Part shown: piece after piece, positions 9,001 to 12,000 of the stretch
Position numbering within the stretch: position 1 is the stretch's first letter
How the letters are laid out: the number at the start of each line of letters is the position of its first letter
DNA from: Candidatus Danuiimicrobium aquiferis
GTDB lineage: Bacteria > Omnitrophota > Omnitrophia > Omnitrophales > Danuiimicrobiaceae
Reading direction: 5' to 3'
Length of the DNA: 64,000 nucleotides
Assembly: GCA_001804285.1 (NCBI GenBank)
Contig: MHFR01000037.1
Span: 149,952-213,951, forward strand
Position numbers and translations under genes: made by a program
The notes under the pieces: generated by a model
Database searches by the model: none
What the model saw: only the letters and a program-made list of their open reading frames with translations
Told to the model about the DNA's origin: nothing

Positions 9001-12000
9001 CCAAGCGCCCAGTCCGATGAATAAGGCAATACCGGCAATAAAACCATAAACAAACATCCGGTTCCTGAGTACAAGCGTCTGATTTCTGGCAACTTCCCGC
9101 CATTTCGTGGCGCCCGGCTGCGCCTTCAACTCAGCATACTCTTTCGCAAGGCTCTTAATCCGTTTGCGGATAGCGACAGCATTTTCAACCGGCAAGACTC
9201 GCTCTCCTCCCCTACGACGAAAGAATAATTCTGCCTGTGTCCTATATAACTCATCTCGAGGACCGCTAAACTTTCCAGTACGGACTTTCAAGCCCGTAAC
9301 ACGAGTTGCAATTTCATCTCTTCGGTGGTTCTGCTCAGGGGTTCGTTGAGCAGCATCAATGTTATTTAAATCGTCCAGTTCAGCGTTTAACACTTGCAAT
9401 TCGGCTTCTTCCCGTTCCAAGTCGTTATCAAAATAATTGCTATCCCCCGCAGGAATCTCGAAAAGTTCTCTGATCCGGATCTTTTCGCCGTCTGGCCTGT
9501 CTCCGGGAAGCTCATTCAAATAAAGCAACACTTTGATTCGAATTGCCTCAAGATTTTTAGGCTGTTTCTTAATATCGCCTTTCGCCGCCACAATCGATCC
9601 GATACTGATCAAATCGTCATTACGCACTTTGGTCCGCAACCGGTCAAAGAAACCGACCACCCCGTTAAAAATTCCGTTAGCGACAGTCACGGGAAACAGC
9701 CAAACCAAAGGAAACATCAAAATCCTTCTATGCAATTTCGGAATCATGTGGCCAAATCTGAAATGTATCAATTGAACTAGCACAGATGCTCCGAAAAGAA
9801 TACTCAGCGACAACGGACGGCCTATCGTCTCAATATAAGTAATAAACGCAGCAATGTACCCCACGGCAGTATGCGAAATAACACCTGTCAGCCACCCAAA
9901 GGCAAAATACGAAAGCGCCACATAGGCCGCAACGGCCCCTACGAGAAAGAGGCCTTTAAGAATCTTGACGTAAACCTTATCTCCATAATAAGGTTCCTCT
10001 TTGTTATCTTTATTTAATTTTGAATTTCGCCAGATAAAATAGAAACCAATCGCCCAGGAAATCATCGGAAGCGAAACCCAGAAAAATGACCACATGTGCG
10101 CAAAATAAAATGTGTGGAGCACGTCGCTTGCCACTAAAATAACATAAGGAAACGACACGAGTCCGGCCGAAAAAATAGCGGTCAATGCGGCGCCGCCGGC
10201 CACGGCCGCAAACGTTGCCCACGGCTGCGCGTCATTAAGCACGCCCGAAACCGGATGAATGCCGACGGCATGAATCCATTTCATGAAACGTGACATAAGC
10301 ATAGCCGATACCGCAACCGAGAATGCGACAATCGCAACCGTAATGACCCACCCGGGGATACCCAAAAGCGTCCCTAAGAGTGCCGGAGTTGTAAAACCGT
10401 CAGCGCCTAAATGCGTGGCCAGATTATTAAGAACACTGATCAATCCGGCTTCCTTCGCCCCGGGAATCAAATTTGCCACGTCGCTCGTAAACGAGGCTCC
10501 TCCGAACAATGATTTATTAAAAATCAGGCTGATCGGAATACCGACGACTCCGGGAATCAGAATACCCGCCATCACAAGCGCAGCCGCTAACCACCCGACA
10601 GGAATGTACCGTCCGGTAGATAAATATAAAAGATGGAGCGACCCCAAAATCGCGATCACGCCAATCGCAGTCGCGCCGAGGGGAAGAGGAATTACAGCCG
10701 CAATCCATCCCAACTTGAAGAATAATGCGGTATTCAGAATGGCTAACGCCGCTAATGTTTTAAAAAAACGTCCACGATGGTGTTGAAATCCGCTTGGTTT
10801 AAACGGCTGAAACCCTTGAGCGAAACCGCGGTTCCAGAAATGTAGCTGATCGATGAACCCCTGAAAAGGATTTGTCAAGTTAATGACAGTCGAATCAGTA
10901 AGCTCCTTGGTAACCTCTTCTCTGGCTGGCTTTCCTAACACAAAACTGCTGTCGCTGCCTTTATAGATTGCACTCAAAATCACAAGCAAAATCGATCCCG
11001 CAGCAGTAATCCAATAAATAGGAATAACGTAACCAAAAACTCCGACAGACATCAAAACGAGAACATTCACAACTACCAATCCGGTCAAAACCGCCAATGA
11101 CCATTTGGGGCCGGCTCTCGTCGCGATCGCCTGTAAAAGGATAAATGACGCAAGTCCTGAAATCAGAATAACAGGAACCGTCACCATAACAGAAAAATAA
11201 AAAACAAAAAGATTAACGGCGGCAAAGAAAACGGTCAAGCCGACGGCACGCTTTAACCGGCTCGTACTTTTCGACATAATCAATCCCGTATACTTAGTCA
11301 ACCCGATCACAATCAACATCGACGCCCCCCACGCAAGCGTCAACACATTCAACTCCGAAAATTCCGTAAGCCGCTCGAGAGGGAAAATCTTGTCAGCGAT
11401 TCCGGAAACAGTAGGAATAATACCAAGCAGTAAAACAATAAAAGACAACATCATCGGCTCATTCAGATACCCTTTTGTCCCCCAAAACGTATTAAACCGA
11501 AGCGACATGGGATGTCCCGGTTCGAAAAAGAGCGGAATTCTAAAGAAATTGTCAGAACGGCCCCAACGCTGGCCGCGTTTCATTTTTTTCTCAACATTGG
11601 TATTCGCCTCTTCAAAAATGGCCTTCATCGTAAACGGACCTCTCGGTTCCCGGTAATCATGAGAAGGATCCCCGTAATGGATGACTCCCATTCCGCTGCG
11701 AATATAAGGCTTTTCAAACGCACCCAAAATAAAATAACCTAAAACCAAAAAAATTCCGGAACCGATCCAGGCAAACTGCGGCAGAAGAAAGACGTAGTTC
11801 ATTAACAAATACCCGAGAATCGCTCCGCCGATAGATCCCCAGAAAATAGCGAATTTAATGACGGCATACTTCGGCGTTCCCGGCGGCCCGAATAGCCCCC
11901 GGTCCAAGACATACGCGGTCTTTCCATAAAATATTTGATTATTGTCCGTCACTTCCCGCAAACGAACACCATGAAAAATACCGGCCTGTTGCGCGGTTGT

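What the first reader, a model, noticed from the sequence alone, without database searches (positions are those of the whole stretch)
9630..11860. A roughly 740-aa polytopic membrane block in the middle of the giant protein
There are long consecutive hydrophobic helices with short loops, more like a transporter or channel core than a single anchor. Smaller TM clusters occur at about 30590-30780, 29150-30100, 15150-15250, 14850-15050, 12990-13130, 8780-9080, 7430-7650 and 6150-6300. A protein that crosses the membrane this many times while carrying large soluble domains on both sides is topologically unusual. It argues that the product is an integral envelope machine and not a simple secreted adhesin.
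Basis: partly seen in the sequence, partly recalled or inferred. Interest (0 to 1): 0.55.

Follow-up and report, generated by a model that had tools for sequence, protein, structure and literature searches.

The report
Membrane block in giant Omnitrophota protein
The hydrophobic block is a real many-helix membrane domain inside a giant (over 11,700 aa) Omnitrophota envelope protein; such helix-rich giants are already described, but part of this block resembles the bacterial membrane glucan synthase OpgH, so it may be more than an anchor.

Summary
Window 9628-11862 (minus strand) encodes aa 7794-8538 of one uninterrupted ORF of at least 11,747 aa, cut by the window's left edge. The block holds 15 strong and 3-4 weaker predicted TM helices. 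Composition-preserving shuffles give about 5.

Loops follow the positive-inside rule: 66 K/R in alternate (cytoplasmic) loops against 8 in short periplasmic turns. The helices therefore form hairpins whose conserved loops face the cytoplasm.

The genome is Omnitrophota. Helix-rich giant proteins are already documented there, so the topology is not unusual in that phylum.

The module itself is almost an orphan, with 5 relatives among 1.84 billion cluster representatives. The relatives share a core of about 10 helices. This protein adds two insertions of four helices each.

One stretch (aa 7855-8027) matches the end of the OpgH/MdoH family-2 glycosyltransferase (GT2) domain and its first TM helices. 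It keeps the SHD and RxxRW motifs (hhalign P 1.6e-6; shuffle z about 12). The N-terminal catalytic half is unproven, and both structure models failed.

Best reading: a diverged OpgH-derived membrane module enlarged by anchor hairpins. Whether it is catalytically active is uncertain.

The parts
1..35202 (-). Giant ORF of at least 11,734 aa counted from the ATG at 35202. The C-terminus lies beyond the left edge of the window.
   Evidence: No stop codon across 35,241 nt. GGGGGG ribosome-binding site upstream of the ATG. Protein-level homologs P0001, P0002 and P0004.
35107..35202 (-). Predicted Sec signal peptide or signal anchor (aa 14-45: MQMWQGKKCRP-ILRIISAIVVFTFTVTTV-AWA|D).
   Evidence: Read directly from the sequence. 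This hydrophobic segment is scored. The N-terminal region is conserved in P0002 and P0004.
9628..11862 (-). The polytopic block of the finding, aa 7794-8538, with about 15-19 TM helices arranged as hairpins.
   Evidence: Hydropathy scans and shuffles. Positive-inside loop counts of 66 vs 8 K+R.
11716..11853 (-). TM1-TM2 hairpin (aa 7797-7842). Its hydrophobic character is conserved in P0001, P0002 and P0005; only one segment is called in P0004.
11161..11679 (-). OpgH/MdoH-like segment (aa 7855-8027): a cytoplasmic loop with SHDYREP (window 11644-11664), IFEEAN (11602-11619) and QRWGRSD (11551-11571), followed by TM3, SGIADKIFP (11380-11406) and TM4.
   Evidence: NCBIfam MdoH models hit 4 of 5 family members, best E 3.4e-5. 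MdoH is the only non-HEAT hit in an unbiased scan of 4,991 aa, E 0.0014. hhalign vs E. coli OpgH residues 437-591: probability 87-90%, P 1.6e-6. Score 50.7 vs 60 shuffles at 15.2 +/- 3.0, maximum 22.2. An enterobacterial OpgH HMM places its top hit at the same site in the giant and in four of its relatives.
10963..11250 (-). Insertion 1: four TM helices (TM5-8, aa 7998-8093). Absent from P0001 and P0002; only partly matched in P0004.
   Evidence: Alignments.
9967..10962 (-). Second conserved half of the block (aa 8094-8425, about 7 TM helices) with motifs GRYIPxGW (10591-10614), SGVLxDAQPW (10219-10248) and WxNSK (10018-10032). No relative detected outside the family.
   Evidence: hhalign vs OpgH, BcsA and PgaC was negative.
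9661..9966 (-). Insertion 2: about four weaker TM helices (aa 8426-8527) specific to this protein.
13177..13530 (-). Candidate N-terminal half of the GT-A domain (aa 7238-7355; PAVVMPS...TVFIIASS...RVIYLYR...SKKYGWIMD). Unproven.
   Evidence: The best hhalign match is colinear with OpgH 245-324, but P is only 0.04 and 3 of 40 shuffles reach the score. AF2 predicts a beta-alpha-beta-alpha-beta pattern here at pLDDT 60-77. Foldseek found only generic Rossmann-like matches, E >= 0.06.
13030..13152 (-). TM hairpin (aa 7364-7404) lying between the candidate GT-A N-half and the MDEKN motif (window 12754-12774). It corresponds to a hydrophobic stretch in the relatives.
8842..17904 (-). Roughly 3,000-aa module (aa 5780-8800) colinear with the relatives P0001, P0002 and P0004. 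The TM block sits inside it.
   Evidence: BLASTP at 22-35% identity.
30544..30744 (-). TM cluster aa 1500-1566 (2 or 3 helices).
29152..29733 (-). Two single TM helices, aa 1837-1855 and 2012-2030, flanking a short K/R-positive stretch.
14845..15246 (-). TM helix aa 6666-6684 (K/R-rich on its C-terminal side) and hairpin aa 6759-6799.
8917..9042 (-). TM hairpin aa 8734-8775. A hydrophobic stretch is present at the aligned position in the relatives.
7438..7581 (-). TM hairpin aa 9221-9268.
6160..6279 (-). TM hairpin aa 9655-9694, immediately before the HEAT repeats.

Best explanation
The block is the membrane part of a rare, conserved module found in a small family of giant Omnitrophota envelope proteins.

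Shown:
- It is a polytopic alpha-helical domain built from helical hairpins.
- Its periplasmic turns are tiny and free of K/R. Its cytoplasmic loops are K/R-rich and are the best-conserved parts.
- A core of about 10 helices is shared with the relatives. This protein has gained two insertions of four helices each. Because each insertion is an even number, the sidedness of the core is unchanged.
- The first cytoplasmic loop and the two helices after it are homologous to the C-terminal end of the GT2 catalytic domain and to TM4-5 of OpgH/MdoH, the inner-membrane beta-1,2-glucan synthase-translocase. They keep SHD (the 'TED' catalytic-base motif) and RxxRW (the 'QxxRW' acceptor-binding motif).

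Inferred:
- The module descends from an OpgH-like processive glycan synthase.
- It works at the cytoplasmic membrane face of the giant protein. It may still polymerise and thread a glycan through its helices, or it may be a catalytically decayed membrane-embedded scaffold.
- The extra hairpins, and the many paired helices elsewhere in the protein, serve to staple the long cytoplasmic C-terminal half to the membrane.

My estimates: real polytopic domain about 0.9; OpgH homology of aa 7855-8027 about 0.75; still an active glycan synthase about 0.25.
For: - Hydropathy and shuffles support the helix count.
- Positive-inside loop counts are 66 vs 8 K+R.
- All hairpins outside the block have K/R-rich outer flanks and K/R-free connectors.
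- The family is tiny and colinear: 5 of 1.84e9 cluster representatives.
- The relatives have 9-11 TM segments against 17 here, because of two four-helix insertions.
- Conservation is highest in cytoplasmic loops.
- OpgH similarity: five different NCBIfam MdoH models hit the same profile region in family members. MdoH is the only non-HEAT hit in an unbiased 4,991-aa scan. hhalign P is 1.6e-6 with 87-90% probability. The shuffle z-score is about 12, and the reversed control falls at null level. The OpgH HMM top hit lands on the same site in the giant and in four of its relatives.
- The best, though non-significant, BcsA alignment falls on BcsA's own QRIRW motif.
- The invariant family residues S, H, D, E, R, R and W coincide with the aligned motif positions.
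Against: - All MdoH scores are far below the curated cut-offs (10-22 bits vs 328-884) and cover only about 80-155 of the roughly 600-700 profile positions.
- Pfam GT2 models give nothing even at E <= 1.
- The N-terminal half of the catalytic domain is not demonstrated: P is 0.04 and 3 of 40 shuffles reach the score.
- The aligned position of the first UDP-binding Asp is not conserved, and the DxD motif reads D(D/E)K.
- The SHD-to-RW spacing is 10 aa shorter than in OpgH, with Pro after SHDYxE.
- The second conserved half has no OpgH, BcsA or PgaC similarity.
- Both AF2 models are low-confidence (pLDDT 37 and 39.5), so the fold is untested.
- The family alignment has only 4-5 sequences.
Confidence: 0.55

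Rival explanations
1. Pure anchoring. The helices are only membrane staples that hold a very long, mostly cytoplasmic polypeptide at the inner membrane, as proposed generally for TM-rich Omnitrophota giants. On this view the OpgH resemblance is a decayed relic or a coincidence with no function.
For: - Helix number is plastic: two four-helix insertions are specific to this protein.
- TM segments are the least conserved class.
- Hairpins of the same style recur all along the C-terminal half.
- The 2026 preprint reads TM helices of giants as anchors.
- GT2 N-half motifs are absent or degenerate.
Against: - A core of about 10 helices with invariant loop motifs (SHDYxE, RW, SGxADRIxP, GRYIPxGW, DAQPW, WxNSK) is kept at 24-38% overall identity. 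That is more constraint than an anchor needs.
- The OpgH match is statistically solid.
Confidence: 0.3
2. A novel transporter or channel core unrelated to glycan synthesis, for example a conduit for part of the giant protein itself or for a small substrate.
For: - Many consecutive helices with short loops.
- The second conserved half has about 7 helices and no recognisable relative.
- An RND efflux operon lies directly upstream on the same strand.
Against: - No hit to any transporter family in Pfam, NCBIfam or PDB sequences.
- No internal or inverted repeat detectable.
- Conservation is concentrated in cytoplasmic loops rather than in the helices.
- The only detectable homology is to a glycosyltransferase.
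Confidence: 0.1
3. Artefact: the giant ORF or its hydrophobic block results from mis-assembly or non-coding sequence, and the hydrophobicity comes from T-rich DNA.
For: Strong local AT skew at 10-12 kb. The window is presumably a metagenome-derived sequence.
Against: - 35 kb with no stop codon in one frame at 46% GC.
- Protein-level homologs are colinear across the block in independent assemblies, including a 94%-identical fragment from another sample.
- Helices are organised well beyond what the composition gives.
- The positive-inside pattern is present.
Confidence: 0.02

Closest known systems
TM-rich giant proteins of Omnitrophota ('Archaeovorin-type'; West-Roberts et al. 2023, bioRxiv 10.1101/2023.11.21.568195; bioRxiv 10.64898/2026.06.07.730766)
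   Same: - Omnitrophota host.
- A single ORF of more than 10,000 aa.
- An N-terminal signal peptide plus dozens of TM helices.
- HEAT repeats, and mostly unannotatable sequence.
   Different: - No SecA_DEAD, GT1/GT5, methyltransferase or NUDIX domains were detected in the 11,747 aa seen here.
- Upstream neighbours are an RND efflux set, not T2SS or pilus genes.
- Neither preprint mentions a membrane-embedded GT2/OpgH-like module.
- The family is extremely rare, with 5 cluster representatives.
OpgH/MdoH, the GT2 osmoregulated-periplasmic-glucan synthase (E. coli b1049)
   Same: A cytoplasmic loop with SHD(F/Y)xE ... EE..xN ... RxxRW, then G(x)HP..R....G...YL..P, running into two TM helices. The match is colinear over OpgH 437-591.
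   Different: - Scores are far below family cut-offs.
- The N-half of the GT-A domain is unproven, and its UDP-binding Asp is not conserved.
- The SHD-RW spacing is 10 aa shorter.
- TM hairpins and a coiled-coil-like insert of about 190 aa would interrupt the domain.
- The downstream helices are unrelated.
- The module is embedded in a giant polypeptide rather than in an 850-aa enzyme.
Other processive GT2 synthase-translocases (BcsA cellulose synthase, PgaC)
   Same: The general logic of a cytoplasmic catalytic loop (TED ... QxxRW) fused to a TM bundle. The best local alignment to BcsA lands on its QRIRW motif.
   Different: There is no statistically significant similarity to BcsA or PgaC (P 0.16-0.24), and Pfam GT2 models do not hit.

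Membership tests
Omnitrophota giant TM-rich proteins (West-Roberts 2023; 2026 preprint) | Encoded in an Omnitrophota genome | tested here: met
   The best genome hits for the neighbouring ProRS include four MAGs labelled Omnitrophota/Omnitrophica at 55-60% identity; all other named phyla are <= 49%. The relative P0001 is annotated as a Candidatus Omnitrophica MAG.
Omnitrophota giant TM-rich proteins (West-Roberts 2023; 2026 preprint) | Single very long ORF (>= 10,000 aa in the 2026 catalogue; > 30,000 aa for 'giant' in West-Roberts) | tested here: met
   At least 11,747 codons without a stop, truncated by the window edge. The 30,000-aa threshold cannot be judged.
Omnitrophota giant TM-rich proteins (West-Roberts 2023; 2026 preprint) | Numerous TM helices, with or without a signal peptide | tested here: met
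   31 strong TM segments plus an N-terminal signal peptide.
Omnitrophota giant TM-rich proteins (West-Roberts 2023; 2026 preprint) | Divergent SecA_DEAD domain ('most' full-length giants) | tested here: not met
   No SecA-related Pfam or NCBIfam hit at E <= 0.01 in the 11,747 aa available. The missing C-terminus is untested.
Omnitrophota giant TM-rich proteins (West-Roberts 2023; 2026 preprint) | Neighbouring T2SS or pilus genes | tested here: not met
   Upstream genes are an RND efflux set and housekeeping genes. The downstream side lies outside the window.
GT2 processive glycan synthase, OpgH/MdoH subfamily | Score above the curated family cut-off (NCBIfam MdoH; Pfam PF13632/PF00535) | tested here: not met
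   10-22 bits against cut-offs of 328-884. No Pfam GT2 hit at E <= 1.
GT2 processive glycan synthase, OpgH/MdoH subfamily | 'TED' catalytic-base motif (SHD in OpgH) | tested here: met
   SHDY(x)E is invariant in all five family sequences and aligns to OpgH SHDFVE.
GT2 processive glycan synthase, OpgH/MdoH subfamily | 'Q(Q/R)xRW' motif about 35 aa after the catalytic Asp | tested here: inconclusive
   RxxRW is present and invariant and aligns to OpgH RDRRW. The spacing, however, is 26 aa rather than 36.
GT2 processive glycan synthase, OpgH/MdoH subfamily | GT-A N-terminal half with a UDP-binding Asp and a DxD motif | tested here: inconclusive
   There is a colinear but non-significant hhalign match (P 0.04; 3 of 40 shuffles). 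The first Asp is not conserved and the DxD position reads D(D/E)K. AF2 shows a beta/alpha pattern at only moderate pLDDT, and Foldseek hits are non-specific.
GT2 processive glycan synthase, OpgH/MdoH subfamily | TM helices directly after the RW motif forming the glycan channel | tested here: inconclusive
   Two TM helices follow and align to OpgH TM4-5. The later helices are unrelated. No usable 3-D model was obtained, and no OpgH structure is in the PDB by sequence.
GT2 processive glycan synthase, OpgH/MdoH subfamily | UDP-glucose-dependent glucan synthesis | not testable with these tools
   Requires biochemistry.
Known transporter or channel superfamilies (MFS, ABC, RND, APC and others) | Profile match or internal structural repeat | tested here: not met
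   No Pfam, NCBIfam or PDB-sequence match. No internal repeat by BLAST or hhalign.

The most novel reading that the evidence does not exclude
The giant protein carries its own built-in, OpgH-derived glycan synthase-translocon of an unprecedented 'exploded' architecture. In this reading a GT-A catalytic domain is split by two conserved TM hairpins and a coiled-coil insert, then fused to a new bundle of about 10 helices. The module would extrude a glycan across the inner membrane right beside the protein's own exported N-terminal part, perhaps to glycosylate, tether or sheath the surface-exposed portion used in host or prey contact. That would be a new class of membrane glycosyltransferase and the first functional handle on an orphan-type Omnitrophota giant protein.
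Probability: 0.2. Interest if true: 0.75.

Novelty: new variant of a known kind. Interest (0 to 1): 0.45.

Why it matters
Giant Omnitrophota proteins are among the largest known and are almost entirely unannotated. Published work records their TM helices only as counts, and structure prediction deliberately skipped TM regions.

This work shows that one dense TM block is a conserved module with a detectable ancestry in a membrane glycan synthase. That turns an anonymous 'anchor' into a testable hypothesis with specific residues to mutate: the SHD motif at window 11644-11664 and the RW motif at 11551-11571. It also suggests that TM-rich segments of other giants should be mined for decayed membrane enzymes.

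If the OpgH link is only a relic, the finding remains an ordinary example of a documented phenomenon.

Tried and rejected
1. The search for homologous proteins with the TM block and with aa 7187-7990 returned nothing. It even missed a 94%-identical fragment that the exhaustive search later found. I treat this as an index limitation, not as evidence of absence.
2. The third homologous-protein search, using E. coli OpgH, returned only enterobacterial sequences of >= 88% identity. The OpgH profile therefore gained little diversity.
3. A metagenome-contig scan with alignment A1 gave 164 pattern matches, none confirmed.
6. Pfam, NCBIfam and PDB-sequence searches of the whole giant protein found only HEAT repeats, a weak DUF218 match and the MdoH signal.
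7. Removing the insertions did not extend the MdoH match into the N-half.
8. hhalign of the B block (MDEKN) and the C block against OpgH found nothing.
9. hhalign of the second conserved half against OpgH, BcsA and PgaC found nothing.
10. A test for internal duplication within the block was negative.
11. The Omnitrophota loci around ProRS show no long ORF within the fetched flanks.
12. No OpgH structure exists in the PDB by sequence.
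Full report
WHAT IS THERE

The minus strand of window 1-35241 is a single open frame of 11,747 codons with no stop. It runs off the left edge of the window, so the C-terminus is missing. The likely start is the ATG at 35202, preceded by a GGGGGG ribosome-binding site. It opens with a textbook Sec signal: MQMWQGKKCRP, then an 18-residue hydrophobic core, then AWA|D. The finding's coordinates correspond to aa 7794-8538, numbered from position 35241.

Two hydrophobicity scales agree. 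Kyte-Doolittle (19-aa window, threshold 1.6) and the Hessa biological scale both find a dense series of TM-like segments in the block: 15 at summed dG <= 3 kcal/mol and 17-18 at relaxed thresholds.

Shuffles show this is not chance. Shuffling the whole protein gives 3.8 segments on average against 31 observed. Shuffling only the block, with its hydrophobic composition kept, gives 5.4 (maximum 10) against 15.

Alternate loops hold 66 K+R and the loops in between hold 8. Most of the latter are only 1-15 residues long. The block is therefore a stack of helical hairpins with minimal periplasmic exposure. Both of its ends, and its long loops, face the cytoplasm.

The isolated hairpins elsewhere in the C-terminal half show the same signature of K/R-rich outer flanks and a K/R-free connector. 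A K/R-based sketch of the whole protein runs as follows:
- signal peptide;
- outside, aa 46-1499;
- a hairpin;
- a short inside stretch, aa 1856-2011;
- a long TM-free region;
- TM 6666-6684 re-entering the cytoplasm;
- the remaining 5,000 or more aa cytoplasmic and stapled to the membrane by hairpins.

This sketch depends on whether the cluster at aa 1500-1566 holds two or three helices and on whether the weak segment at aa 2332-2350 is a real TM. The side of the 4,300-aa middle region is therefore unresolved. TMHMM and DeepTMHMM were not available.

CONTEXT

Upstream on the same strand lie an RND efflux set and housekeeping genes: ProRS, RseP, Dxr, CdsA, UppS, PurA, SerA, ClpP and trigger factor. 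The best genome matches for ProRS include four MAGs labelled Omnitrophota/Omnitrophica at 55-60% identity (the top hit and one other are unclassified "uncultured bacterium" MAGs), and all other named phyla are <= 49%.

Two preprints already establish that giant Omnitrophota proteins carry numerous TM helices. [quoted passage not shown] The other reports a mean of 22 helices at >= 10,000 aa and up to 331 helices in a single protein.

WHAT IS THE BLOCK?

Pfam, NCBIfam and PDB-sequence searches of the entire protein recognise only HEAT repeats near aa 9700-9870 and a weak DUF218 match.

An exhaustive HMMER scan of 1.84 billion cluster representatives, using aa 7700-8800, found five proteins:
- P0001, 4,027 aa, annotated as a Candidatus Omnitrophica MAG;
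- P0002, 7,537 aa;
- P0004, 7,111 aa;
- two fragments.

All are singletons. The three long proteins are colinear with aa 5780-8800 at 22-35% identity. P0002 and P0004 also share the N-terminal region, aa 14-572. The block is thus part of a conserved but very rare module.

The alignment shows a shared core of about 10 helices with invariant loop motifs: SHDYxE, IFEEAN, RW, SGxADRIxP, GRYIPxGW, SGVLxDAQPW and WxNSK. This protein has two extra insertions of four helices each, at aa 7998-8093 and aa 8426-8527. Even-numbered insertions leave the topology of the core intact. Cytoplasmic loops are the most conserved class (37.5% pairwise identity, 38 invariant columns) and TM helices the least (26.8%). 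No internal repeat is detectable.

THE OpgH LEAD

Scanning the family members against NCBIfam gave one recurring weak hit: the glucans biosynthesis glucosyltransferase MdoH (OpgH). It hit 4 of 5 members, with best E 3.4e-5, always over profile positions ~334-490. In an unbiased scan of a 4,991-aa piece of the giant, MdoH is the only non-HEAT hit (E 0.0014).

Other tests agree:
- Profile-sequence comparison with E. coli OpgH gives 87-90% probability and P 1.6e-6 over OpgH 437-591.
- Column shuffles of the query give scores of 15.2 +/- 3.0 (maximum 22.2, n = 60) against 50.7 observed. The reversed query scores 15.3.
- An HMM built from enterobacterial OpgH places its single top hit at the homologous site in the giant and in four of its relatives.

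The alignment pairs SHDYREP with SHDFVEA, which is the GT2 'TED' catalytic-base motif. It pairs EEANTN...KRGQRWGRSD with EELPPN...KRDRRWCHGN, the 'QxxRW' motif. It then pairs GHPMSLRFNTFWGTKGYLNEP plus TM3 with [21 protein letters not shown] plus OpgH TM4. Those family residues are invariant. The best, non-significant, local alignment to BcsA also lands on its QRIRW motif.

LIMITS OF THE LEAD

- The scores are far below family cut-offs, and Pfam GT2 models are silent.
- The upstream soluble region (aa 7238-7355) aligns colinearly to the start of the OpgH catalytic domain: PAVVMPS with ALIMPIC, TVFIIASS with DVYILSDS, and RVIYLYR with QIFYRRR. The support is weak, with P only 0.04 and 3 of 40 shuffles reaching the score.
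- The first UDP-binding Asp is not conserved, and the putative DxD motif reads D(D/E)K.
- If this region is the N-half, the catalytic domain is interrupted by two conserved TM hairpins (aa 7364-7404 and 7797-7842) and by a coiled-coil-like insert of about 190 aa. I know of no GT2 with that arrangement; this rests on my own knowledge.
- Removing the inserts did not extend the HMM match.
- The SHD-to-RW spacing is 10 residues shorter than in OpgH.
- The second conserved half of the block (aa 8094-8425) has no similarity to OpgH, BcsA or PgaC.
- Both AlphaFold runs failed, with pLDDT 37 and 39.5. The only encouraging detail is a beta-alpha-beta-alpha-beta pattern at pLDDT 60-77 over the candidate N-half. 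Foldseek returned only generic Rossmann-like matches.
- No OpgH structure exists in the PDB by sequence.

MECHANISM

Shown:
- The block is a polytopic hairpin domain with conserved cytoplasmic loops.
- It has a 170-aa segment homologous to the catalytic-loop/TM junction of OpgH.
- Its helix number has expanded in this lineage.

Inferred: the module descends from an OpgH-like synthase-translocase. It either still handles a glycan at the inner membrane or persists as a structured membrane platform. The added hairpins and the scattered helix pairs tether the long cytoplasmic part of the protein.

I rate the homology at about 0.75 and retained catalysis at about 0.25. The main rival is pure anchoring (0.3). 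A novel transporter (0.1) has no positive evidence beyond the density of helices. An artefact is excluded by the 35-kb open frame and the independent homologs.

NOVELTY AND VERDICT

As first described, the finding is a correct observation of a documented phenomenon, namely TM-rich Omnitrophota giants. What is new is that this block is a conserved, nearly orphan module with a GT2/OpgH-like signature. Neither preprint mentions such a module; they report only soluble GT1 and GT5 domains. I file it as a new variant of a known kind, with interest 0.45. The boldest reading still allowed is an 'exploded' built-in glycan synthase-translocon, at probability about 0.2.

Noticed in passing
window 1-35202 (-), whole giant ORF; relatives P0001, P0002, P0004: The protein is almost free of cysteine: 3 Cys in 11,747 aa (0.026%) against 0.82% in the 17 neighbouring proteins. 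The relatives show the same depletion (0, 2 and 2 Cys in 4,027, 7,537 and 7,111 aa). Neither Omnitrophota giant-protein preprint mentions cysteine.
   Followed up: partly
window 13576-13953 (-) and 8437-8814 (-): Two 125-aa helical domains (aa 7097-7222 and 8810-8935), 55% identical to each other, bracket the OpgH-like/TM module on both sides. They match no known family.
   Followed up: no
window 13951-14880 (-): Tandem helical repeats of about 70 aa (aa 6788-7097, 27-33% identical), rich in the pattern 'GIDV...WLKE', lie just after the hairpin at aa 6759-6799.
   Followed up: no
window ~5632-6144 (-): PBS-lyase-type HEAT (alphaRep-like) repeats at aa ~9700-9870 directly follow the TM hairpin at aa 9655-9694. 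They are the only confidently recognisable soluble domain in the protein.
   Followed up: partly
window 35437-45383 (-): An RND efflux set (TolC-like OMP, membrane-fusion protein, two AcrB-type pumps) lies immediately upstream of the giant gene on the same strand, about 200 bp from its start. Whether it is functionally linked is unknown.
   Followed up: no
window 59955-62541: A tyrosine integrase (61327-62541, +) sits next to tRNA-Lys (61132-61205, -) and tRNA-Leu, with a zeta-toxin/AAA-like gene at 59955-60563 (-). This is probably the edge of an integrated element.
   Followed up: no
window 33526-35106 (-): The N-terminal region after the signal peptide (aa 46-572) is the best-conserved part of the family, at 38-46% identity to P0002 and P0004. 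It has no known domain and is likely the exported 'business end'.
   Followed up: no
L082 (NCBI SICL01000039.1, Candidatus Omnitrophica MAG): The relative P0001 (4,027 aa, weak NUDIX hit) is followed on its 20-kb contig by another 2,455-aa ORF. P0001 aligns only from the giant's aa 5782 onward, so it looks like a fragment of a larger, possibly split, giant gene.
   Followed up: no
tool behaviour: The word-index homology search returned nothing for queries whose 94%-identical fragment (P0003) and 35-38%-identical relatives exist in the underlying collection.
   Followed up: no
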